A stretch of 64,000 nt of DNA, taken from assembly GCA_046050355.1 (NCBI GenBank), contig JBJOPW010000005.1, forward strand, positions 2,503 through 66,502. The letters are read 5' to 3'. Of this stretch, positions 33,395-61,637 are shown one piece after another. How positions within the stretch are numbered: the stretch's first letter is position 1; each line of letters opens with the position of its first letter. The translations under genes were made by a program, and so were the position numbers. The notes below the pieces were generated by a model, which was not told where the DNA came from, ran no database searches, and saw only the letters and a program-made list of their open reading frames with translations. Source of the stretch: Candidatus Parcubacteria bacterium (GTDB lineage Bacteria; Patescibacteriota; Minisyncoccia; Phycocordibacterales; UBA918).

Positions 33395-35230
33395 TCAAAA
33401 AGGCGACTTTACTTTTGCGTCATTGTTTAAGATTTTTTTGAGTACTTTAATATCTGGATCAGCGAGGTCAGTACCGTACGCACCGTCAGATGTCTTTGGA
33501 ACTGTTGGTGTCGGCGCACTTACAGCCGAAACCTCTGTTGGTATGGTTGTTTTAGTATCAAGAACACTACCGAGGGCTGACCGCAAGGCCGTGCGATGAT
33601 CACCGGTTGAAACTGGGGTTGATTCATGCTTTGTAGCCTGAGACGGTTCTTCGCTCTTTTTTGTGTCTTCCACTTTGGCGGTGGCGGCAATTCGAGCCAG
33701 TACCGCTTTGAGTCCATCGGTAGTTGGAGCTGGTGGAATCGCTGGGGGTTTTGGTTTGGGCGTGGTGTTTGGTTGTGTTGAACGGTTAACTGCCTTTGTC
33801 TTGGTAGCAGATTTATGCTCGGTTCGGGTCGGGGGAGCTATTTCATTACTCTTTGGTACTGCTGGTGTCACTACTACCACTGGTTTATTATCTGCTTTTT
33901 GTCCTTCGGCCTTCGGTGGCTTGGGTGGTGGCTCAACCGGCGCATGGAGATCAACCACCAATTGCTCAATCTGAGCACGTGGTTTGGTATAGTTCGCCCG
34001 ACTCGCGGCGAGCACCATGTCTCGGCAAGACACACGCGGTGGCGCAATTGGTGGTAATGTAATCGCCGAAAACGGTTGCGAGCCGATACCGTCAATCATT
34101 AGTGTAAGATAAATTTGAGCAAAGCCAAGATTAACAAGATCAGCCGCTAAAAAACGTGGCGTGAAGATGGTCTCAAGCACTTCAGCATCAAACGGGCCCA
34201 CGCGAAAGGCTACCGTTGTCCCTACGTTACCAAACACCGCGTTACGTACATCCTCTTCCATTTGTTCGATATACTGGTGCGCAATAATGAGGTTGAGGTG
34301 ATATTTGCGTGCTTCAGAGAGGATATTCGCAAAGGTGGCATTGGCAAAACTCTGAAACTCATCAACATAAAAGTAGAAGTTCGGCATCTGCTTCATTTGT
34401 TCTACTGGCAAATCGGCACGACTCATCGCCGCCAAGTAGATACGGGTTGTCAACATAGAACCAAGGAGATTTGCATTACTCTCTCCCACCAACCCTTTCG
34501 AGAGGTTCATGATGAGAATTTTTTTCTCATCCATAATTTTTCGAATATCAAAACTGGAATGCGGCTGCCCGATAATATTACGAATGAGAGGATTCCCCGT
34601 GAACTGTCCAATCTTGTTTTGAATAGCGGGCAAAGCTTCCGCTGCAAAACGGTCAGTATAGGCAGCAAACTCTTCAGTCCAGAAGGCTTTAACAGCAGGA
34701 TCTTTCACATAATCAACCACGCGATTACGGAAGTGTTTGTCTGAGAACAAGCGATTGACCGACAGCAGTGTCGTGTCAGGGTACTCAATGAGAGCGAGAA
34801 GAGCATTCGTGAGAATATACTCCATACGAGCACTCCACGCATCAACCCAAATCTTCTTGAAGGTAGACATGAGTCCTGAGACGACCAAGTGCCGTTTGTC
34901 CGGCCCGACATCTTCCATGACGTTAAATGAGACAGGATGATCAAGGTCAAATGGCGCGAAGTAAACCACATCATTGACACGATGCTCGGGTACGTATTGA
35001 AGCAGTGTCTCAGCGGCCGATCCATGTGGGTCAATAAAAGCCATACCTTCACCGTTTTGGATGTCTTGCACCGCCATATTCTCTAAGAGCGTCGACTTCC
35101 CCATACCAGTCTTACCAATGACATACATGTGTCGTTGTCGGTCTTTGGCCTTGATACCAAACGGTATTTCTCGACCACGAGCATCGGTCTTGGCAAAGAA
35201 AGTAATTTTTTCTGGGTCGAACTGCGTCAT
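33395..35230 (-). CDS. Soluble TraG/VirD4/TrwB-like P-loop ATPase with long Pro/Thr/Lys-rich disordered C-terminal tail
   Basis: 611 aa. Walker A YVIGKTGMGKSTLLEN and Walker B FYVDEF. The coupling-protein-like block LNLIIAHQYIEQ...VFGNVGTTVAFRVGPFDAEVL is present. There is no N-terminal TM. Confidence 0.55.
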   Translation of the reverse strand: MTQFDPEKITFFAKTDARGREIPFGIKAKDRQRHMYVIGKTGMGKSTLLENMAVQDIQNGEGMAFIDPHGSAAETLLQYVPEHRVNDVVYFAPFDLDHPVSFNVMEDVGPDKRHLVVSGLMSTFKKIWVDAWSARMEYILTNALLALIEYPDTTLLSVNRLFSDKHFRNRVVDYVKDPAVKAFWTEEFAAYTDRFAAEALPAIQNKIGQFTGNPLIRNIIGQPHSSFDIRKIMDEKKILIMNLSKGLVGESNANLLGSMLTTRIYLAAMSRADLPVEQMKQMPNFYFYVDEFQSFANATFANILSEARKYHLNLIIAHQYIEQMEEDVRNAVFGNVGTTVAFRVGPFDAEVLETIFTPRFLAADLVNLGFAQIYLTLMIDGIGSQPFSAITLPPIAPPRVSCRDMVLAASRANYTKPRAQIEQLVVDLHAPVEPPPKPPKAEGQKADNKPVVVVTPAVPKSNEIAPPTRTEHKSATKTKAVNRSTQPNTTPKPKPPAIPPAPTTDGLKAVLARIAATAKVEDTKKSEEPSQATKHESTPVSTGDHRTALRSALGSVLDTKTTIPTEVSAVSAPTPTVPKTSDGAYGTDLADPDIKVLKKILNNDAKVKSPF

Positions 35231-44248: not shown

Positions 44249-44590
44249 TTAAAACAGTTTGGGAAACTGTTTCAAAACCTTGACTACCGTTTCAGGAATA
44301 CTTGAACTGAAACGGTGACAAGGTGTACTGCGACTGTAAGTCGGCGAACCTATCTCCTTACAGGAGCAGTACACCATTTGGACTTTTCTGTTCGCACTCT
44401 CCAGAAAATTCTCAAATGGTCCTAAAACAGTTTCCCAAACTGTTTTAGCCTTTCGAGTGAGCCAGTTTGGGAAACTGGCGCAAGACTCGTCTAGTATCTT
44501 TTGAGCCGAGCGAAAAAAGAGACAGACGAGTAGACAGCTCCTGTAAGGAGTCAGTCGAATGCTCTTGAAAATGTTCTTTTGCGTTTTTTG

Positions 44591-44664
44591 TCCGCGCTCT
44601 AGGATTCGAACCTAGGACCTTTCGAGTATCAGTCGAATGCTCTAGCCAACTGAGCTAAGCGCGG
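44591..44664 (-). tRNA. tRNA-Ile (anticodon GAT)
   Basis: Manual fold. Acceptor CCGCGCT/AGCGCGG. D-arm GCTC-AGTTGGCTA-GAGC. Anticodon stem TTCGA/TCGAA with loop CTGATAC. T-arm CTAGG-TTCGAAT-CCTAG. Discriminator A. Confidence 0.85.
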
Positions 44665-44847
44665 ACAAAAGAAACAAAAAGAACATTTTAGCCAACCCTA
44701 TCATCTCATAAATATCGATGATTCGCTTCGCGACCGGAAAAATTGCTATCCGCAATTTTTAGCTCGCACATACAGGGGCTTCTAATTCCCTCTGTTTGTG
44801 TGCGGTACTATAGCAGATAATAATAAAAAATGTAAGGGTGCTGAGGC

Positions 44848-45170
44848 GCGGACTTGGTCACGAATAATTTTCTGGTAGAAAATTTTCTCGACCCCGCCTC
44901 ATAGTCGCAGAGCGACATATTCCGGCTTTCAAGTCCTCACGAAAGCAAAGCAGTTTGCTTTCTTCCTCGTCCCAACTTTCGCTTTGCTCAATTTGTGCCC
45001 AGGAGAGGACTTGGTCACGAATAATTTTCTGGTAGAAAATTTTCTCGACTCCGCCTCATAGTCGCAGAGCGACATATTCCGGCTTTCAAGTCCTCACGAA
45101 AGCAAAGCAGTTTGCTTTCTTCCTCGTCCCAACTTTCGCTTTGCTCAATTTGTGCCCAGGAGAGGACTTG
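44848..45170. repeat. Two tandem 158-bp direct repeats, each beginning with a tRNA-Leu 3'-end fragment (GAGAGGACTTG) and containing three hairpins
   Basis: The units (approximately 44848-45006 and 45007-45164) are about 99% identical. A third partial unit merges into the tRNA-Leu 3' end. Confidence 0.8.
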
Positions 45171-45218
45171 AACATTACATGTTCAGTACAGGTTACTGGT
45201 ATTTTATTGAATACATAG

Positions 45219-45300
45219 TGCTGGAGAGAGGACTTGAACCTCCACACCTTGCGGCATACGCACCTGAAGCGCACGTGGCTACCAATTACACCACTCCAGC
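45219..45300 (-). tRNA. tRNA-Leu (anticodon CAG), long variable arm
   Basis: Manual fold. Acceptor GCTGGAG/CTCCAGC. D-arm GGTG...CCAC. Anticodon loop TTCAGGT. Long variable arm TGCCGCAAGGTGTGG. T-loop TTCAAGT. Confidence 0.8.
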
Positions 45301-45339
45301 ACTATATCTTCAATTTATAAAATACCGATTAACCTCCTG

Positions 45340-45450
45340 CCATAATCTCCCAGATTATGGCAGCCTCCACACCTTGCGGTATACGCACCTGAAGCGCCGT
45401 TCGACAATATCCCATACTGTCTCACCTACCAATTACACCACCTAGGCAAT
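45340..45450 (-). pseudogene. Degenerate tRNA-Leu copy with two insertions
   Basis: The D-arm, anticodon arm and variable arm are near-identical to tRNA-Leu(CAG). The acceptor no longer pairs. An approximately 22-nt insert lies after the D-arm, and a 27-nt palindrome (CTGCCATAATC...GATTATGGCAG) replaces the T-arm. Confidence 0.5.
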
Positions 45451-45788
45451 GTCCGAGATTGTACAATAAAGATGTAATAAAACAAAGTACACCATAGAAA
45501 ATTCGCTTGAACGCCAGCTTTTTAATGCGATATATCGCACTAAAAAGCTGGCAATAGTAGGTGATTTAGTAACAAAAAAGCTGCCGGGACCAGATATCCA
45601 GGCAGCGGGAAGCGGCAGATTCCGCCTCCTTACATCAATGTGTATGTACCCCATACTAGACACATGAGCACAAAAGCCCAAAAGCCCAAGTGTGCCAGGG
45701 ATAGTGGCGGGCGAGATCAATCACCCGCCAGTGGAGAGGTTCGCGGTTCAACCGCTCCCTCCCCTCCACCAAACTCCCACGCTCTGGT

Positions 45789-46060
45789 CTACCTTTCGGC
45801 AAGGTAGACCTCCTCGCTGATCGCAAAGCGCGTCGGGAGGGAACCGCAGGGCAGTACCTCCTCCCCGTTCAAGCCGGTCGGCTGGATTTCGTAGAGGCAC
45901 TCCCCACGATGCATGACCGCGTAAGGCTGCATCACCAAGAAATAGAACCCGCCAAACGGCAGAACGGCGCACAGAGCGCTCCAGGCCAGTGCCGAGCGGA
46001 TGCGTCCACGCTGCGACCGAGGGATGTTCAACCTGTACGGGCCATTATCAAACTTTTCCA
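45789..46060 (-). CDS. Small single-TM protein (about 90 aa) on a GC-rich (about 60%) island; start at MEKFDNG preceded by GAGGAG
   Basis: ORF track 45789-46076. The start is trimmed to the Met that has a strong SD 8 nt upstream. A minus-strand terminator lies at 45578-45604 plus a T-run. Confidence 0.5.
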
Positions 46061-46159
46061 TACTCTGTCTCCTCAATACTGCTCACTCTTTGGTGAGTCA
46101 GTGTTGTGCGACACCATGTCACACCTGGTAAAATTATACACAAAAATGGCTAAAAGTCA

Positions 46160-46675
46160 ATGATTCCCCAATTCGCACGTGAAAAAAGCCCGAAAATGCG
46201 CTATAGTATGCGCATGTCAATGGGACTTGCATTACTCACGGTTTTGGTGATTGTTATCGGCATCAGTATGGCGTCGAGCCCAAGCGGTCTACAGGATGTC
46301 TTGCCGGCCTTGCTTGGCTTTTTTAACTCATACCTCATACCATTCCTCCTTGGTATAGCATTTCTCGTTTTTATCTGGAATGCGATTCGCTTCTTTGTCA
46401 TTAATGGCGCCACGGACGAAGGTCGCGAGAATGCCAAAAACCTTGCCCTCTATAGTCTTGGTGCTTTTATTTTTGTACTTTCGTTTTGGGGTATCATCAA
46501 TATTTTCACAAACGGTCTCGGCCTCGATAATTGTAGTAATGATGTCGTACCGGACTATCTGAGCGACGATTATAAGAGCCTAGCCCCCTGTACTTCTCCA
46601 CGCCCACAGCCAAACCCAAACAATACCAATAACTCAGGTTCTTCCGGTGGTCTTCCACCGCTCATTGATACATAA
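46160..46675 (+). CDS. Small membrane protein with TrbC/VirB2-pilin-like topology and Pro/Asn/Gly-rich tail
   Basis: 171 aa with a signal-like TM and two further hydrophobic helices. Family assignment is tentative. Confidence 0.45.
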   Translation: MIPQFAREKSPKMRYSMRMSMGLALLTVLVIVIGISMASSPSGLQDVLPALLGFFNSYLIPFLLGIAFLVFIWNAIRFFVINGATDEGRENAKNLALYSLGAFIFVLSFWGIINIFTNGLGLDNCSNDVVPDYLSDDYKSLAPCTSPRPQPNPNNTNNSGSSGGLPPLIDT

Positions 46676-46919
46676 TCAGCCAGACACAACAAAACCACCA
46701 AATGATCTTGTCCTTTGGTGGTTTTGTATCATCACAGCACATATTTATATGTATACAAAAAGCAATCGCTTCGTCTGCTCTTTTGTCTTATCCTTTGGCC
46801 TAGGTCTTTCCCTAGTTGTCTGATACCACTTCAGAGTGTTCTGTATCGTCTACTCATTAGGTAGTCAATTGAGCTACCTAATATCGACCAATTAGCCGTT
46901 ATGTGCAATCTTGTTACCA

Positions 46920-48396
46920 AGATGCAACGACGTGTCCAATTGGAATTAATCCACGACCAGCTTCCGCTAGCCGTGCCTTGTTACGACTTACTCCCTGTCA
47001 TCGAGCTTACCGTAGGACCAGATAAACTGGCACTTCGGGCACTCCCGACTCCCTTGAGTTGACGGGCGGTGAGTACAAGGCTCGGGAACGTATTCACCGT
47101 GACGATGCTGATTCACGATTACTAGCGATTCCGACTTCATGAGGTCGAGTTGCAGACCTCAATCCGAATTGAGGATGGTTTTGGGGATTTGCTCCACCTT
47201 ACGGTATTGCGTCCCATTGTACCACCCATTGTATCACGTGTGCAGCCCAAGGCATCAAGGGACATGCTGACCTGGCGTCATCCTCACCTTCCTCTCCCGT
47301 GAGGGAGCAGTCTCGCCTGACACTTGTAACAGGCAACGAGGGTTGCGTTCGTTTCCCCACTTAAGGGAACAGCTCAAGCCACGAACTGACGACGGCCATG
47401 CATCACCTGCTATACACCCTCGAAGGCTTCCCGAGTTTCCCCGGGCGTGCAGTATAGTTTCTAGCCTTGGTAAGGTTTTTCGCTTAGCTACGAATTAAGC
47501 CACATGATCCACCGCTTGTGCGAGCCCCCGTCTATTCCTTTGAGTTTTAAGCTTGCGCTCGTACTACCCAGGCGGTCTGTTTAACGTGTTAACTTCGCCA
47601 CAGAGAGGGTCGATACTCCCTATAGCCAACAGACAGCGTTTAGGGCGTGGACTACGCGGGTATCTAATCCGCTTCGCTACCCACGCTTTCGTGCCTCAGC
47701 GTCAATAGAGTCCCAGCAAGCTGCCTTCGCATTTGGTATTCCCCTCGATATCAACGGATTTCACCCCTACACCGAGAGTTCTGCTTGCCTCTGACTTATT
47801 CTAGTTATACCGTTTCGGATGCGATTCCGGGGTTGAGCCCCGGGATTTAACACCCGACTAATATAACCGCCTACGCACCCTTTACGCCCAGTAAATCCGG
47901 ATAATGCTTGGGGCCTCTGTATTACCGCTCCTGCTGGCACAGAGTTGGGAGCCCCTTATTCATGAGGTAACGTCAATAAACTTCCTCCCTCATAAAAGGT
48001 GTTTACGTCCCGAGGGACTTCATCCACCACGCGGCGTCGCTCCGTCAGACTTTCGTCCATTGCGGAAGATTCTCGACTGCAGCCTCCCGTAGGAGTATGG
48101 ACCGTGTCGCAGTTCCATCGGTGGGGGTCAGGCTCTCACCTCCCCTAGCCGTCGTAGCCTTGGTAAGCCGTTACCTTACCAACAAGCTGATAGCCCGCAG
48201 GCCGTTCCAAGAGCGATAAATCTTTACCCCGAAGGGACCATCAAGTATTATTCGACCTTTCGGCCGGTTATCCCTGACTCTTGGGTACGTACCTACGTGT
48301 TCCTACCTCGTCTGCCATGAATCTAAATTCATTCGACTTGCATGCCTCATCCACGCCGCCAGCATTCATCCTGAGCTAGGATCAAACTCTAATTAA
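46920..48396 (-). rRNA. rrs: 16S ribosomal RNA (complete, about 1.47 kb), not followed by 23S within the window
   Basis: 5' end TTAATTAGAGTTTGATCCTAGCTCAGGATGAATGCTGGCGGCGTG (reverse complement of 48350-48396). 3' region AAGTCGTAACAAGG...GGATTAATTCC near 46920. Confidence 0.9.
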
Positions 48397-48932
48397 AGAC
48401 AGGTACTAGATGTAAACATCTATGTATCTGCGCCGGAGAATATAGTGTCGCGTGTACTTATGTCGCGACGATTCAACCGACTATTTACCTAAGGATAAGA
48501 CAAAAGAATATTCGATATTCGATTGCCTTATTGTGCTGACCCCGTTAGAAGATAATGTCGAAAGTAACTAAGTTACCAGATAACCACGCAATGATGCGTA
48601 TGCCCTTCTAACGGGGCTGATGCATACCATTGTTCACATTTTAAAAAACATGAAAAATAATATACGTACCTACTACTGTTTGGGACAGTAGTAAGTGATA
48701 TTGACCAACCGTATTTCAGACTGATGCTCACAAACAAATCCCCGAACCAGAGGTTCAGATGCTTCTTCGTGAGGTTGTCAACAAACAGTGTCCCCTTTGA
48801 AAGCGCTAGCCTTCAAAGAAGGCTTAGAATTACTTCCAACGAACAGTGCGAGCATTATACAGATATTGAAAATAAATGCAAGCGTTTCATGGGCAATACC
48901 CTAACTAGCCACAAGGACTAGCGTATCTCCAG

Positions 48933-48966
48933 ACAAAAAATCCCCCCGAGTGGTGTTTCGGGGGAA
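48933..48966 (-). terminator. Intrinsic terminator (CCCCCGAAACACCACTCGGGGGG + ATTTTTTGT) for the GC-rich lipoprotein gene
   Basis: A 7-bp GC stem plus a T-run on the minus strand, 45 nt 3' of the stop at 49012. Confidence 0.6.
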
Positions 48967-49011
48967 TCTCATTATTATCCGGAGTGCGAATTATTCGCGC
49001 CGCTGAATAGA

Positions 49012-49533
49012 TCAGTAACCGCCGCAGCCCGGGAACCAGACCTTCTTGCCACCATGCCGCACGCCGGCCTGGCAGTTCTTGATCTGCGTCCACTGGTTGA
49101 CGTCCACCGACTGCTCGATCTCGTTCCAGTTGATCGCGGTGGCGTCGCCACCTTCGGCAATCGCCACACCTCCCTGACCGCCCTCGGCCACATTGGTGTT
49201 GTTGATATTGGTGACGGCAGGCTTCGTCGCCTTGGCCGCGCTGATCATGCCGCTGGCGGTCACACCCGCTTCACCGAGCGGCACCAGTTGCTCGACCGGC
49301 GTTGCCCCTGCCGCATAGGCCACGATCTCCACTTCTCCGGTCTGCGGGTTGTAGTTGAAGACCATCGTCGACGAAGGCGCCATCGGATTTGACGCATCAG
49401 TGACAATCGTAGCCCTGTCGACAGTCTGGCCGCTGTTCGGGTCCTCGAAATCGATCGTATGTGCCTGTGGTCCGCAGGCGCTGAGACCTGCGACCAGCAT
49501 CAGGCCCAAAACCCACTTGAAAACTTTCATCAT
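49012..49533 (-). CDS. Lipoprotein (lipobox LSAC) on a GC-rich (about 60%) island
   Basis: 173 aa. MKVFKWVLGLMLVAGLSACG signal. GGAGAAG SD 8 nt upstream. Confidence 0.65.
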   Translation of the reverse strand: MMKVFKWVLGLMLVAGLSACGPQAHTIDFEDPNSGQTVDRATIVTDASNPMAPSSTMVFNYNPQTGEVEIVAYAAGATPVEQLVPLGEAGVTASGMISAAKATKPAVTNINNTNVAEGGQGGVAIAEGGDATAINWNEIEQSVDVNQWTQIKNCQAGVRHGGKKVWFPGCGGY

Positions 49534-49732
49534 TGTACTTCTCCATGTTTGAGCCCCGGTGGGGCTCGGTTTATGCCCCCAGGCTCGCCGACCAGCGTCA
49601 GTGCGGGTCGGGAACTGTCTTGTATTTTACATAAAATATTATAAATGTCAATACCACATGATACAATGCTTATACACCCCAATCGACTGCGAGAGCCTTG
49701 GTATGACCTAGTACTGTTTGACCTGATTTGGC

Positions 49733-50344
49733 ATGTGGTACGATAGATACCGTATGGTACAAACCTCCCTCCTCTTTTTGCTCGAGTGCTTACCGATGGT
49801 TGTTTTTTATCTTGCTAGCTATGCTTATGATTTCATCACCTCCACTCTCTTGTACGTCTGCGCTACCATCCTCGTAACCGCCATAATGATTTTTTACCAC
49901 CGCCGGTTACCTGCCTTATCCCTCATTTTTGGCTTTTTTGTGATTGTTGCCGGTATCTTGACGTACCTGACCGACAATCCAGACATCATTATTCTATCCG
50001 ATACAATTTACTTCTTTTTTGGAGCGTGGCTCTTCTACCGGAGTTTAGGCTGGTCACGACCACTTCTTCACCGCCTCTTTGGGCACACCTTTGATCTGCT
50101 GCCCGCTGGTTGGCGCCTCCTTACGTGGTGTTGGATTACGATTTTTTTGGTCGCTGGTATCTCAAATGAGATCGTCCGTCACACCATGACCCCAGAGTGG
50201 TGGATTGGCTTCCAGTTTTGGCGGTCAGTACTCATTACGCTATTTGCCTTTTGTCTCTTCCCAATTTGTCGACGCTTCCGCAATCCGCACACAACTAGCG
50301 ACTGGGGTATTCTCGTCACGCCAGATACGGCCAAGAATAATTAA
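49733..50344 (+). CDS. YciB/IspZ-family inner-membrane (septation-associated) protein
   Basis: 203 aa with five TM helices. The arrangement resembles YciB (LPMVVFYLASYAYD...). Confidence 0.6.
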   Translation: MWYDRYRMVQTSLLFLLECLPMVVFYLASYAYDFITSTLLYVCATILVTAIMIFYHRRLPALSLIFGFFVIVAGILTYLTDNPDIIILSDTIYFFFGAWLFYRSLGWSRPLLHRLFGHTFDLLPAGWRLLTWCWITIFLVAGISNEIVRHTMTPEWWIGFQFWRSVLITLFAFCLFPICRRFRNPHTTSDWGILVTPDTAKNN

Positions 50345-50542
50345 TGGTGGTCAAGCACACCAGACAACCAGCGACTATAACCAAACCGTCTCTTAAGTAT
50401 GAGTCTTTTTGGTTTATCCGGCCCGGTATAGTCATTAAGAATGACTACTGTGCCTATGATATTGAATTTATTTGGGTAGACCTGTTCCCACAAACAGTGG
50501 CTGGGTTTACAAGCCCCATCAGTCCCGTACAATAGGAGAGTT

Positions 50543-51241
50543 ATGATCACAACCGAAACTGTAGTTATGTCTGTGGGCGGATCATTAATTGTTCCAGAGA
50601 CCATCGACACCAAGTTCCTCACTGAACTCAAATCCCTTATTACTAATGAAGCGGCCCAGAGTGGTCGTCGTTTTATTATCATTGCTGGCGGTGGCAAGAC
50701 GGCTCGGCGCTACCAAGAGGCGGCAGCTGAAGTGACCGACCTCACTCGCGACGACCTTGATTGGCTCGGTATTCACTCGACTCACCTCAATGGTCACCTC
50801 CTGCGTACTATCTTCCGTGATATTGCCTACCACATCATGATTAAGAACCCAGACGAAGTCCTTGATGTGCCCGAGCAGTACCGGGTGATTATTGCCGCTG
50901 GCTACCGCCCGGGCTGCTCGACCGACCTCCGGGCGGTGCAGATCGCCGAGAAGATTGGCGCCAAGACCGTCATCAACCTTTCAAATACTGACTACGTCTA
51001 CACCGACAACCCACACACAAACCCAGACGCCAAGAAGATCGAGGACATCACCTGGGCCGAATTCCGCCAGATTATTCCTGAAGAATGGGCACCAGGCTTA
51101 TCGACCCCGTTTGACCCAGTCGCTGCCAAAGTCGCCGAACGTGATGGGATTGAGGTCGCGCAGCTCAATGGCCTTTCGCTCGACTGTCTCAGTGATTATC
51201 TCGCCGGCCGACCATTCATCGGCACCCGGATTCACAATTAG
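50543..51241 (+). CDS. pyrH: Amino-acid-kinase family protein, probable UMP kinase (short/archaeal type)
   Basis: 232 aa. VMSVGGSLIVPE...FIIIAGGGKTARRY. Confidence 0.6.
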   Translation: MITTETVVMSVGGSLIVPETIDTKFLTELKSLITNEAAQSGRRFIIIAGGGKTARRYQEAAAEVTDLTRDDLDWLGIHSTHLNGHLLRTIFRDIAYHIMIKNPDEVLDVPEQYRVIIAAGYRPGCSTDLRAVQIAEKIGAKTVINLSNTDYVYTDNPHTNPDAKKIEDITWAEFRQIIPEEWAPGLSTPFDPVAAKVAERDGIEVAQLNGLSLDCLSDYLAGRPFIGTRIHN

Positions 51242-59961: not shown

Positions 59962-61107
59962 ATGGAAAATAAACCACCTAAAAAAGTACTTTTTCTCATC
60001 ACTAAAAGTAACTGGGGCGGGGCGCAACGTTACGTCTACGACCTTGCGACGAGCCTTGATCGTAGACAGTTTGAGCCGGTAGTAGCGCTAGGTGGTACTG
60101 GCACACTTGTCGATATGCTCCATCACGCCGGTATTCGCACGATTACAATCACGAGTCTAGAACGAGATGTGAACGCCAAAAAAGAACTGGCGTTGGCACG
60201 CGAGCTATATCATATCTACCGTACCGAACAACCCGATATACTTCATCTCAATAGCTCAAAAGCTGGCGCGATGGGGGCTCTTATCGGTCGCCTCGCTCGT
60301 GTACCGCGAATTATTTTTACCGCACATGGCTGGGCTTTCAATGAAGATCGACCATATTGGCAACGACTGATCATTAAGGTAATACATTACCTTACCGTAT
60401 TCCTCGCACACCACACTATCGCTGTCTCTTCCGGAATGAAGGCAGAAATGGGCTGGTTTGGGATACAGTCGAAAATGTCGGTTATCAATCCCGGCCGATC
60501 AATCGGCGCCATGTTTACACACACTGAAGCGCGGGACAAAATTGTCGAACTCTTCCCAGTCCTATCGCCGTATCGCCATGACCCGTGGATAGTGTGTGTA
60601 GCAGAGCTTCACCCAATCAAACGACACCAGGGTTTATTTGAGGCAATTCGTAGTCTTACTGCCATCAATCCACATATTCGACTCCTCTGTTTTGGTGACG
60701 GTCAATTGCGTGAATCACTCTCAGCGTGGGTTACTGCTCATGGCATGTCTGAACATATATTTATACTCGGCAGTCTCCATGAGGCGGCCCGCTTCCTCAA
60801 AGCATTTGATATGTTTGTGCTCGCCTCCAAATCTGAATCATATGGTTATGTGCTTCATGAAGCTGGATTAGCTGGCATACCAATAGTAGCCACCAATGTG
60901 GGCGGTATTACAGACATTATTACACCCCATAAAACTGGCTTGTTGGTACCCGTTGATGATGCCCGCGCACTGGCACAAGCCGTAGCAACGTTACTGAGCG
61001 ATCAGACACTAGCCCAAGCTTTACGTGCAGCCAGTTATACCGCACTGGCAGAACGAACTGTTGCCAATATGACTGCGGCCACGACACGACTCTATCTCCA
61101 GCACTAG
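59962..61107 (+). CDS. Family 4 glycosyltransferase
   Basis: 381 aa. FVLASKSESYGYVLHEAGLAGIPIVATNVGG. Confidence 0.85.
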   Translation: MENKPPKKVLFLITKSNWGGAQRYVYDLATSLDRRQFEPVVALGGTGTLVDMLHHAGIRTITITSLERDVNAKKELALARELYHIYRTEQPDILHLNSSKAGAMGALIGRLARVPRIIFTAHGWAFNEDRPYWQRLIIKVIHYLTVFLAHHTIAVSSGMKAEMGWFGIQSKMSVINPGRSIGAMFTHTEARDKIVELFPVLSPYRHDPWIVCVAELHPIKRHQGLFEAIRSLTAINPHIRLLCFGDGQLRESLSAWVTAHGMSEHIFILGSLHEAARFLKAFDMFVLASKSESYGYVLHEAGLAGIPIVATNVGGITDIITPHKTGLLVPVDDARALAQAVATLLSDQTLAQALRAASYTALAERTVANMTAATTRLYLQH

Positions 61108-61637
61108 ACTCCGGACACCGGACAGGCATTATAACTATAGGCCACATGCCCGGCTCCCACATTAATTTCACAGTACGTATTTTGTCTTTCCAAAAATACC
61201 ACAATCGTGTACGAAGTCAGGTCAGTATTATTATTACTATTGCCGCTATTACTACGGAGCCGATACCGAATTGCGGTTGCATTAGTTCGATCAACCCCTG
61301 GTCGAAAGTTGAGGGCTGTATGTAAGGCGGACTCGTGCGCGGTGTACGTACCCGACATATTCTTAAGCACTGCTTCCGTAGCACCGCCAGCAGCCCCTGC
61401 TGGACACGCAACGGCCGTACCTGAACACGGATAGCGACCATTCTGATTGCGATAGTACTCTAAAGTAGTCACCAATTGTCTGGCCTCCTGAATACGCTGT
61501 GCATCTTGAGCTGCTACACGCGAATTTTGCATCGAGGCCAATAGAGATGAAGCGAGAAGTCCAACAATAGTAATAACAACCATGAGCTCAATGAGCGTGA
61601 ACCCTCGGTTACGACTTGATCGGTCGGTCATACGCAT
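61104..61637 (-). CDS. Type IV pilin / pseudopilin (prepilin N-terminal cleavage/methylation domain)
   Basis: RGFTLIELMVVITIVGLLA class III signal. The start is set at MRMTDRSS (ORF-track start is 61652). Confidence 0.8.
   Translation of the reverse strand: MRMTDRSSRNRGFTLIELMVVITIVGLLASSLLASMQNSRVAAQDAQRIQEARQLVTTLEYYRNQNGRYPCSGTAVACPAGAAGGATEAVLKNMSGTYTAHESALHTALNFRPGVDRTNATAIRYRLRSNSGNSNNNTDLTSYTIVVFLERQNTYCEINVGAGHVAYSYNACPVSGV

What the first reader, a model, noticed from the sequence alone, without database searches (positions are those of the whole stretch)
48933..49625. Second GC-rich (about 60%) island: lipoprotein gene with SD, promoter hairpin and intrinsic terminator, immediately upstream of the 16S gene
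This is the same compositional anomaly as at 45.6-46.1 kb. It is a self-contained unit (GGAGAAG SD, LSAC lipobox signal, terminator at 48942-48965) placed between the 16S leader and the host yciB-like gene. Two foreign mono-cistronic cassettes bracketing the rRNA/tRNA region suggest a recombination hotspot.
Basis: seen in the sequence. Interest (0 to 1): 0.55.

Follow-up and report, generated by a model that had tools for sequence, protein, structure and literature searches.

The report
Variable-slot lipoprotein gene beside 16S
The GC-rich patch is a real, self-contained gene for a small surface lipoprotein of an unnamed family found only in these ultra-small (CPR/Patescibacteria) bacteria; it sits in a gene-swapping slot next to the 16S rRNA promoter and was not imported from an unrelated organism.

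Summary
Window 49012-49533(-) encodes a 173-aa lipoprotein (lipobox LSAC) with its own promoter, structured leader, SD and strong terminator. Its GC is 61% and GC3 0.77, against 47% and 0.47±0.08 for the window.

The "foreign cassette" reading is only partly right.
- **Lineage-restricted family.** An exhaustive search of 1.84 billion representatives found about 11 relatives. Every one with enough flanking sequence to place lies in the same neighbourhood (AA-kinase / IspA / 16S) of related Patescibacteria contigs.
- **GC-rich everywhere.** Each family member is GC3-rich relative to its own genome, so the anomaly belongs to the family.
- **Variable slot.** The segment between the rRNA promoter and ispA (about 48890-49732) differs between relatives. 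A relative with 99% identical 16S carries unrelated GC-rich secreted-protein genes there; two others are empty.
- **Exchange within the lineage.** The lipoprotein tree disagrees with the neighbouring AA-kinase tree.
- **No mobile-element marks.** There are no att/attC repeats, no integrase, and no phage or plasmid hits. Chimerism is excluded by an identical independent contig.

Function and the cause of the GC bias remain unknown.

The parts
48890..49732 (.). Variable segment (the island as defined by comparison): everything between the conserved rRNA promoter and the conserved ispA start
   Evidence: blastn and MAFFT against L002, L003 and L005: homology ends at window about 48887-48898 and resumes at about 49733-49769. 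L004 and L005 have only about 110-140 bp here.
49624..49651 (-). Sigma-70-like promoter TTGACA-16-TAAAAT of the lipoprotein gene, in an AT-rich stretch (17-33% GC)
   Evidence: Consensus scan, 11 of 12 matches; local GC. The transcription start site was not determined.
49534..49617 (-). GC-rich 5' leader: hairpin CCGACC/GGTCGG, GAGCC + G-run (49580-49576), then hairpin GAGCCCC-ACC-GGGGCTC (49567-49551)
   Evidence: Fold of -35.4 kcal/mol, z = -2.2. The same G-run / C-run / G-run leader lies upstream of family genes in L019, L017, L018, L007, L016 and L024, with looser versions in L010, L023, L006 and L022. No Rfam match.
49538..49544 (-). Shine-Dalgarno GGAGAAG, 7 nt before the ATG
   Evidence: Read from the sequence.
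49012..49533 (-). CDS of the 173-aa lipoprotein, member of an unnamed Patescibacteria-restricted family
   Evidence: ORF list. Exhaustive phmmer gave 12 hits, 9 at E<=1e-10. Alignments A1 and A8 show invariant C154 and C170. dN/dS is 0.33 and 0.17 in two close pairs.
49474..49533 (-). Signal peptide with lipobox LSAC (Cys20 is the predicted lipidated N-terminus)
   Evidence: Read from the sequence. L17, A19 and C20 are invariant in the 13-sequence family alignment (nearly invariant in A1). Weak match to a lipoprotein signal model, NF047847, residues 1-21, E = 0.13.
48986..48998 (-). Small hairpin GCGAA-TAA-TTCGC just after the stop codon; a degenerate copy of a GGCGC..GCGCC hairpin that follows the stop in most family members
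   Evidence: Fold; downstream sequences of family genes.
48935..48965 (-). Intrinsic terminator: stem TCCCCCGA/TCGGGGGA, 8-nt loop, T6 run. An A-rich tract upstream can extend the stem
   Evidence: Fold of -40.8 kcal/mol, z = -5.5; inverted repeat I4.
48854..48881 (-). Flank, not part of the island: 16S rRNA promoter TTGCAT-16-TATAAT, invariant in L002, L003 and L005
   Evidence: Alignment A5; also matched in L004, L006 and L018.
46939..48397 (-). Flank: 16S rRNA gene
   Evidence: Rfam RF00177, 1382.8 bits.
49733..50344 (+). Flank: IspA/YciB-like septation protein gene, transcribed divergently. The conserved start is probably the ATG at about 49754
   Evidence: Pfam PF04279, E = 2.5e-26; alignment A6.

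Best explanation
The island is one complete transcription unit for a small membrane-anchored surface lipoprotein. The protein belongs to a fast-evolving family restricted to one group of Patescibacteria (CPR). The 99%-16S relative is labelled Paceibacteria; other relatives carry Parcubacteria, Kaiserbacteria or Saccharibacteria labels.

The unit occupies a hypervariable intergenic slot bounded by two conserved, divergently oriented promoters: the 16S rRNA promoter and the ispA promoter. In different lineages this slot is empty, holds this family, or holds one to five unrelated, equally GC-rich, monocistronic secreted-protein genes.

**Shown**
- The gene anatomy.
- Family membership and conserved position.
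- The borders of the slot.
- Purifying selection on the coding sequence.
- The family-wide GC3 excess.
- Disagreement between the lipoprotein tree and the neighbouring genes' tree.

**Inferred**
- Alleles and whole modules are swapped between related CPR bacteria by homologous recombination in the conserved flanks, not by a site-specific element.
- The protein is an exposed envelope component under diversifying or frequency-dependent pressure, for example contact with a host cell or with phage.
- The GC3 excess is maintained by a fixation bias linked to that recombination (GC-biased gene conversion) or by repeated re-import from a GC-richer gene pool within the lineage.
For: **Anatomy.** Promoter, leader, SD, lipobox CDS and terminator are all present.

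**A real coding gene**
- A family of about 15 sequence clusters has conserved motifs and two invariant C-terminal Cys.
- dN/dS is 0.33 (L017 vs L018) and 0.17 (L006 vs L022).

**Conserved position**
- L018 has SecD-SecF-AAA-DUF805-AAkinase-IspA-FAM-16S, the same order as the window.
- L007/L008 have AAkinase-IspA-221aa-FAM-16S; L019 has AAkinase-FAM-16S.
- L016, L006, L009-12 and L013-15 keep the same neighbourhood.

**Variable slot**
- L002 has 16S 99.0% identical over 1460 nt and AA-kinase 90%. It lacks the family and carries two GC-rich (GC3 0.77-0.80) signal-peptide ORFs unrelated to it; L003 carries one.
- L004 and L005 have only about 110-140 bp between the rRNA promoter and ispA.
- The slot genes in L002 and L006 are followed by terminator-like hairpins, and one L006 gene has a strong promoter match.

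**Fast evolution and exchange**
- Window vs L018: AA-kinase 87% but family protein 53%.
- L017 vs L018: dS is 0.19 in the family gene against 0.04-0.08 in its neighbours; dN is 0.064 against 0.004-0.005.
- L018 vs L019: family protein 67%, AA-kinase 66%.
- L016 vs L007: family protein 78% and IspA 61%, but AA-kinase 70%. L016's AA-kinase is 87% to L006, whose family protein is only 35% identical.

**Family-wide GC excess.** Family genes have GC 0.50-0.64 and GC3 0.54-0.86, against locus GC 0.39-0.53. The correlation with background GC is r = 0.58 over 11 loci.

**No mobile-element signature**.

**Not an assembly artefact**.
Against: - The function is entirely unassigned. There is no Pfam, NCBIfam, PHROG or PDB relative, and the AlphaFold models are poor (pLDDT 53 and 58).
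- The tree incongruence rests on one or two short neighbouring genes and on pairwise identities, not on proper phylogenies.
- ispA appears to travel with the family gene in L016/L007 but is not GC-rich, which sits awkwardly with a purely recombination-driven GC bias.
- Polarised changes between L017 and L018 are mostly GC->AT (18 vs 3; third positions 8 vs 2). This fits decay from a GC-richer source as well as it fits an AT-biased mutation spectrum opposed by a fixation bias. Numbers are small and the outgroup is distant.
- Surface exposure and host or phage interaction are inferences from the lipobox and the evolutionary pattern only.
Confidence: 0.55

Rival explanations
1. Ancestral, vertically inherited lineage-specific gene that simply evolves very fast and has been lost or overwritten in some lineages. 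Its high GC3 is kept by selection on the gene itself, such as codon bias of a highly expressed gene or mRNA structure or stability.
For: - The position is conserved across relatives whose 16S is only 91-93% identical.
- Family GC3 tracks background GC with a constant offset, r = 0.58.
- The leader and post-stop hairpins travel with the gene.
Against: - Pairwise identities are incongruent with AA-kinase.
- dS is 2-4 times higher than in adjacent genes of the same genome pair.
- G- and C-ending codons are raised together rather than one preferred codon per amino acid, and the non-coding leader is also GC-rich.
- Two pilin-like genes in the window, which are likely to be well expressed, have ordinary GC3 of 0.44-0.47.
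- Unrelated genes occupying the same slot in L002 and L003 have the same GC3 of about 0.8.
Confidence: 0.27
2. Recent horizontal acquisition from a GC-rich organism outside the lineage, for example from a high-GC host bacterium.
For: - GC3 is 0.77 against 0.47 for the window.
- Recent substitutions show a GC->AT excess, which is compatible with amelioration.
- The gene is absent from the 99%-16S relative L002.
Against: - An exhaustive HMMER scan of 1.84 billion representatives gave about 11 family relatives (9 at E<=1e-10). All that can be placed lie in the same CPR neighbourhood.
- The one other hit, P0011 (708 aa, E = 4.5e-5 over about 40 residues), is not a family member.
- The nearest relative is only 45-53% identical, so no donor is in sight.
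- The GC excess is seen in every member in genomes of 39-53% GC.
Confidence: 0.08
3. Cargo of a site-specific mobile element: an integron-like cassette, a tRNA- or rRNA-targeting island, or a prophage remnant.
For: - The slot has a modular, monocistronic organisation.
- tRNA-Leu fragments and a 157-nt tandem duplication lie near the other island.
Against: - No direct or inverted repeats at the borders.
- Each unit has its own promoter and terminator, unlike integron cassettes.
- No integrase, transposase or IntI within about 15 kb.
- No hits in viral contigs, phage or plasmid collections, or PHROGs.
Confidence: 0.05
4. Artefact: an assembly chimera, or a spurious ORF in GC-rich non-coding DNA.
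For: The compositional jump is abrupt.
Against: - An independent Logan contig is identical across both borders and was seen in 2 samples.
- Homologous genes lie at the same place in many other assemblies.
- dN/dS is below 0.35, with a conserved lipobox and conserved cysteines.
Confidence: 0.01

Closest known systems
Bacterial lipoproteins (Lgt/LspA substrates with a lipobox signal peptide)
   Same: An N-terminal signal peptide has a basic n-region, a hydrophobic core and the lipobox L-S-A-C at residues 17-20. This is conserved across the whole family.
   Different: The mature part has no detectable relative in Pfam, NCBIfam, PHROGs or the PDB. Lipidation and the presence of Lgt/LspA in this genome were not tested.
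Replacement-type flexible genomic islets or integration hotspots between conserved core genes (the known pattern for surface-structure loci in many bacteria; from general knowledge)
   Same: The same slot between the same conserved flanks holds non-homologous content in close relatives. No integrase or repeats are present, and the products are envelope or secreted proteins.
   Different: It is very small (0.1-4 kb, one to five monocistronic genes). It is GC-rich rather than AT-rich relative to the genome. One border is the rRNA promoter itself.
Recombining host-interacting lipoprotein loci, e.g. in Borrelia (PMC11389397, title and abstract seen)
   Same: Surface lipoprotein genes diverge far faster than their neighbours and show signs of allele exchange.
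   Different: There is no sequence relationship. Only a single copy is present in the window, with no multigene family or plasmid location. The host interaction is only inferred here.
Integron gene cassettes (attC + IntI)
   Same: Short, single-gene modules sit in tandem in one orientation in some relatives (L002, L006).
   Different: No attC-like or any border repeats, no integrase, and each module carries its own promoter and terminator.

Membership tests
Bacterial lipoprotein precursor | Signal peptide with lipobox [LVI][ASTVI][GAS]C about 15-25 residues from the N-terminus | tested here: met
   The protein begins MMKVFKWVLGLMLVAGLSAC. L17, A19 and C20 are invariant in the 13-sequence alignment.
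Bacterial lipoprotein precursor | Processing by Lgt and LspA, and actual lipidation | not testable with these tools
   No lgt or lspA gene was looked for outside the window. Proteomics or globomycin treatment would be needed.
Unnamed Patescibacteria lipoprotein family (alignments A1 and A8) | Full-length similarity, the AxGxxPVxQ motif, the AAK helix, an N/G-rich linker and two C-terminal Cys | tested here: met
   phmmer E-values of 2.5e-29 to 1.1e-11 for 8 full-length relatives. Invariant A47, P53, Q82, A99, A100, C154 and C170.
Unnamed Patescibacteria lipoprotein family (alignments A1 and A8) | Position next to AA-kinase/IspA and upstream of 16S | tested here: met
   Seen in the window, L018, L007/8 and L019, with related arrangements in L006, L016, L009-15 and L017.
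Integron gene cassette | attC recombination site at the cassette end | tested here: not met
   The only inverted repeats at the 3' end are the terminator and a 5-bp hairpin, and no border repeats were found. No formal attC covariance model was available.
Integron gene cassette | Adjacent IntI integrase and promoterless cassettes | tested here: not met
   No recombinase among the ORFs annotated from 26.9-43.0 kb and 43.6-63.9 kb. The gene has its own promoter-like site.
Integrative genomic island or prophage remnant | Flanking direct repeats (att), an integrase, and relatives on mobile elements | tested here: not met
Recent cross-phylum horizontal transfer | Closest relatives in another phylum with matching composition | tested here: not met
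   All placeable relatives lie in the same CPR gene neighbourhood, and none is closer than 45-53% identity.
Rho-independent terminator | GC-rich stem-loop followed directly by a U-run | tested here: met
   8-bp stem with 6 G-C pairs, 8-nt loop, T6 run; z = -5.5.
Known cis-regulatory RNA (Rfam) | Match of the leader to any Rfam covariance model | tested here: not met
   Nothing significant at E<=10 in 48850-49720.

The most novel reading that the evidence does not exclude
The slot between the rRNA promoter and ispA, and a second slot beside the pilin-like gene, may be a dedicated exchange site. Through it, CPR bacteria would trade a shared pool of GC-rich, self-contained genes for small secreted or lipid-anchored proteins. 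The uniform GC3 of about 0.8 in unrelated modules would then mark either strong GC-biased gene conversion or a common GC-rich reservoir. The family's conserved G-run / C-run / G-run leader would be a new regulatory RNA switch that controls these surface proteins.
Probability: 0.15. Interest if true: 0.6.

Novelty: new member of a known kind. Interest (0 to 1): 0.33.

Why it matters
For annotation, it shows that an abrupt GC jump in a CPR genome need not mean foreign DNA or misassembly. A small class of envelope-protein genes carries its own composition.

Biologically, it gives three concrete leads:
- A previously undescribed lipoprotein family confined to one CPR group.
- A tiny hypervariable locus anchored on the rRNA promoter. 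This could be used to type strains and to look for the proteins these episymbionts expose to hosts or phages.
- A conserved structured leader that could be tested as a regulatory RNA.

None of this is yet tied to a function, so the immediate importance is modest.

Tried and rejected
**Searches for a known protein family**
- Pfam, NCBIfam and PHROGs scans of the protein and of all family members gave nothing meaningful.
- A PDB sequence-profile search returned only chance hits.
- Two AlphaFold2 runs on family alignments gave pLDDT 53 and 58. Only the C-terminal 40 residues exceeded 75. I judged them too poor for a fold search and did not run one.
- The word-indexed protein search found only the protein itself.

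**Searches for mobile-element or outside relatives**
- The viral-contig scan found none.
- tblastn against the phage and plasmid collections found none.
A narrower alignment worked.

**Leader RNA**
- An Rfam scan at E<=10 over the island found no known leader.
- A covariance model built from six leaders recovered only its seeds. RNAalifold found the proximal hairpin without compensatory changes in that subset.
- The leader is therefore reported as a lead, not a demonstrated RNA element.

**Other checks**
- A search for border repeats with 7-nt seeds found nothing flanking the island. The 15-nt pair 48668/49706 (D17) is about what chance gives in 6.5 kb, and one copy lies in the conserved rRNA leader.
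- hhalign of the family profile against the L002 and L003 slot ORFs showed no relation. All-against-all blastp of slot ORFs linked only L006_428 and L016_494.
- Literature searches on Saccharibacteria or Parcubacteria lipoproteins and variable regions found nothing relevant.

**Host identity**
- I first assumed the host was a Saccharibacterium.
- The 16S does not carry the TM7 probe and primer signatures as I recall them (recalled sequences, so only a lead).
- The 99%-identical relative is labelled Paceibacteria (class Minisyncoccia).
- The class is left open within Patescibacteria.
Full report
**1. The observation**

- An ORF on the minus strand (49012-49533, 173 aa) starts MMKVFKWVLGLMLVAGLSAC, a textbook lipoprotein signal with lipobox LSAC.
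- It is preceded by GGAGAAG 7 nt before the ATG, by two GC-rich hairpins in a leader of about 84 nt, and by a TTGACA-16-TAAAAT promoter-like site in a very AT-rich stretch.
- It is followed by a strong intrinsic terminator: stem 48965-48942, T6 at 48940-48935, z = -5.5 against shuffles.
- The CDS has GC 0.611 and GC3 0.770. The window averages GC 0.471, and 52 long ORFs average GC3 0.47 +/- 0.08.
- This island and the one at 45.6-46.1 kb are the two highest 300-nt GC peaks in the 64 kb.
- Recoding the protein with the window's codon usage would give GC 0.517 and GC3 0.485. Most of the excess is therefore synonymous, and G- and C-ending codons are both raised.

**2. Context**

- 16S rRNA lies at 46939-48397(-), with tRNA-Leu and tRNA-Ile further downstream and no 23S in the window.
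- On the other side lies a divergently transcribed IspA/YciB-like gene. After it come an AA-kinase (PyrH-like) gene, DUF805, an AAA kinase and SecF/SecD.
- Between the lipoprotein terminator and the 16S gene lies TTGCAT-16-TATAAT (48881-48854). This site is invariant in relatives and is the likely rRNA promoter.
- The rest of the window encodes cell-envelope and housekeeping functions. No recombinase was found among the ORFs annotated from 26.9 to 63.9 kb.

*Host identity.* The host is a Patescibacteria (CPR) bacterium.
- The closest public relative, L002, has 16S 99.0% identical over 1460 nt and is labelled Candidatus Paceibacteria (class Minisyncoccia).
- Other relatives are labelled Parcubacteria, Kaiserbacteria or Saccharibacteria.
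- The 16S does not match the Saccharibacteria probe signatures as I recall them, so I leave the class open.

**3. Not an artefact**

A Logan contig from run SRR35355747, seen in two samples, is 100% identical to window 48841-50669. It spans both compositional borders. Homologous genes occur at the same place in many independent assemblies (see point 4).

**4. What the protein is**

- No curated family or solved structure matches.
- The word-indexed search found only the protein itself.
- An exhaustive HMMER scan of 1.84 billion cluster representatives found 12 hits, 9 at E<=1e-10.
- A profile search and a metagenome scan added a few more members.
- All members are lipoproteins of 150-180 aa. 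They share the lipobox, an AxGxxPVxQ motif, an AAK-containing helix, a variable Asn/Gly/Ala-rich linker, and a C-terminal module with two invariant cysteines.
- AlphaFold models are poor overall (pLDDT 53-58). They suggest a four-stranded N-terminal sheet, a disordered linker and a small C-terminal helix-hairpin module. I did not run a fold search on them.
- The gene is under purifying selection in the two close pairs available, with dN/dS 0.33 and 0.17.

**5. Where the family lives**

Every member with enough flanking sequence lies in the same neighbourhood as in the window.

| Locus | Arrangement |
|---|---|
| L018 | SecD-SecF-AAA-DUF805-AAkinase-IspA-FAM-16S (identical order to the window) |
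| L007/L008 | AAkinase-IspA-221aa-FAM-16S |
| L019 | AAkinase-FAM-16S |
| L016 | AAkinase-IspA-FAM |
| L006 | 16S, four other secreted-protein genes, FAM, IspA |
| L009-12 | DUF805-FAM-AAkinase |
| L013-15 | AAkinase-328aa-FAM |

Short contigs (L020-L024) show nothing contradictory.

No member was found on viral contigs, phages or plasmids. The family is therefore native to this lineage.

**6. The slot is hypervariable**

- Against L002, L003 and L005, DNA homology runs through the 16S gene, its leader and its promoter. It stops about 10 nt upstream of the -35 (window about 48890) and resumes at the ispA start (about 49733-49769).
- In L002, the intervening segment is about 2.5 kb. It holds two signal-peptide ORFs (139 and 250 aa; GC 0.62-0.65, GC3 0.77-0.80) and a 95-aa ORF.
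- In L003, it is about 1.8 kb and holds a different 183-aa signal-peptide ORF (GC3 0.80) and a 97-aa ORF.
- In L004 and L005, only about 110-140 bp separate the rRNA promoter from ispA.
- None of these ORFs is related to the family or to each other by blastp or hhalign or to Pfam.
- The genes in the L002 and L006 slots are followed by terminator-like hairpins, and one L006 gene has an 11-of-12 promoter match.
- No direct or inverted repeats mark the borders in the window.

**7. Evidence for exchange within the lineage**

The family protein diverges much faster than its neighbours.
- Window vs L018: AA-kinase 87%, family protein 53%.
- L017 vs L018: AA-kinase and IspA 99%, family protein 88%. 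dS is 0.19 against 0.04-0.08, and dN is 0.064 against about 0.005.

Against that background, some pairs are too similar.
- L018 vs L019: family protein 67%, AA-kinase 66%.
- L016 vs L007: family protein 78% and IspA 61%. Yet L016's AA-kinase is closest to L006 (87%), whose family protein is only 35% identical.

This points to a breakpoint between AA-kinase and ispA, and to movement of alleles or blocks between lineages. These are pairwise identities on short genes, not tested phylogenies.

**8. The GC anomaly belongs to the family**

- In every locus, the family gene is GC-richer than its surroundings. Family GC is 0.50-0.64 and GC3 0.54-0.86, against locus GC 0.39-0.53.
- Family GC3 rises with background GC (r = 0.58, 11 loci). 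This argues for long residence with a gene-specific upward bias rather than a single recent import.
- The unrelated slot genes of L002 and L003, and the island-1 gene, share the same GC3 of about 0.77-0.80.
- Polarised differences between L017 and L018 are mostly GC->AT (18 vs 3). That is expected either if the gene is decaying from a GC-richer state, or if AT-biased mutation is normally countered by a GC-favouring fixation bias. The data are too few to decide.
- The cause of the bias is unresolved. Recombination-linked GC-biased conversion or a GC-rich intra-lineage gene pool seem more likely to me than expression-linked codon selection. Two pilin-like genes in the window have ordinary GC3, and the non-coding leader is GC-rich too.

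**9. The leader**

- Family genes of several sub-lineages share a leader with GAGCC, a G-run (GGTGGGGAA or GGGGGCA), a spacer often ending in AAAC, then a hairpin (GA)GCCCC-loop-GGGGC(TC)AA a few nucleotides before the SD.
- An nhmmer profile of seven leaders finds only family leaders in 160 kb of held sequence.
- The C-run can pair either with the proximal G-run (local hairpin) or with the distal G-run, with GAGCC pairing to GGCTC. The minimum-energy folds of L019 and L007 take the distal form.
- L017 and L018 have GGTGG with CCACC where others have GGGG with CCCC. L006 and L022 keep the local hairpin with three doubly changed pairs (CTTCCC/GGGAAG).
- This resembles a two-state RNA. However, a covariance model from six sequences recovered only its seeds, and RNAalifold found no compensatory pairs in that subset. 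No Rfam family matches. I report it as a lead only.
- A second shared feature is a GGCGC..GCGCC hairpin right after the stop codon, followed by the terminator. The window has a degenerate copy of that hairpin.

**10. The other island (45.6-46.1 kb)**

I checked this briefly because the finding leans on it.
- Its ORF really starts at 46061 (90 aa, with a central transmembrane segment and two Cys) and has its own TTGACT-17-TATAAT promoter.
- A 64%-identical homologue sits next to a T4SS-pilin-like gene in four other metagenome contigs. There too it is GC3-rich (0.72 vs 0.50-0.57).
- In L002, the segment is replaced by about 530 bp of unrelated DNA.
- It therefore behaves like island 2: a lineage-native, GC3-rich small envelope-protein gene in a variable slot.

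**11. Verdict**

It is wrong on the key point, because the gene is not foreign to the lineage, and no cassette or att machinery is present.

It is best described as a new member of a known kind: an accessory, fast-evolving surface lipoprotein gene in a small flexible locus. Two features are unusual and unexplained: the family-wide GC3 excess and the conserved structured leader. The function is unknown. A role at the cell surface in host or phage contact is my inference from the lipobox, the linker variability and the evolutionary pattern.

Noticed in passing
window 44838-45486: A truncated pseudo-tRNA-Leu copy lies at 45356-45486(-), upstream of the real tRNA-Leu(CAG) at 45218-45300(-). tRNA T-arm-like fragments (GAGAGGACTTGAAC) recur at 45160-45173 and 45003-45016, inside a 157-nt tandem duplication (44838-45151). 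These look like scars of repeated integration or duplication at the tRNA-Leu 3' end.
   Followed up: partly
window 45559-46134 (ORF 45789-46061, minus strand): The first GC-rich island encodes a 90-aa membrane protein with its own promoter. A 64%-identical homologue lies beside a T4SS-pilin-like gene in four other contigs and is also GC3-rich there. In L002 the segment is replaced by unrelated DNA.
   Followed up: partly
window 46129-48887 vs L002 722-3475: The 16S gene is 99.0% identical to L002. Its immediate flanks are only about 74% identical (pilin-like gene side) and 81% identical (leader), and nearby protein genes are 65-79% identical at the DNA level. This could reflect unusually strong 16S conservation or recombinational homogenisation of the rRNA gene.
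   Followed up: no
window 44590-48397: The 16S gene is not followed by a 23S gene. A pilin-like gene on the opposite strand, island 1 and tRNA-Leu lie between the 16S gene and tRNA-Ile(GAT). A 20-nt inverted repeat (46779-46798 / 48488-48507) brackets the 16S gene like a processing stem.
   Followed up: no
L016 vs L006 and L007: L016 is a mosaic. Its AA-kinase is closest to L006 (87%), but its IspA (61%) and lipoprotein (78%) are closest to L007. This implies a recombination breakpoint between AA-kinase and ispA.
   Followed up: partly
window 49534-49617 and the leaders of L006, L007, L010, L016-L019, L022-L024: The conserved G-run / C-run / G-run leader has two mutually exclusive pairings. 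GGTGG:CCACC in L017 and L018 stands in for GGGG:CCCC elsewhere. No Rfam family matches.
   Followed up: partly
L002, L003, L005, L006 record titles; window 16S: Public labels of close relatives disagree (Paceibacteria, Parcubacteria, Kaiserbacteria, Saccharibacteria). The window's 16S has AAACTCAAAGG rather than the TM7-type AAACATAAAGG at the 905 probe site, as I recall that probe.
   Followed up: partly
window 33395-35230 and 46160-46675: A TrwB/TraG-like coupling ATPase and a T4SS-pilin-like small membrane protein are present, together with a type IV pilin (N_methyl) gene at 61104-61637.
   Followed up: no
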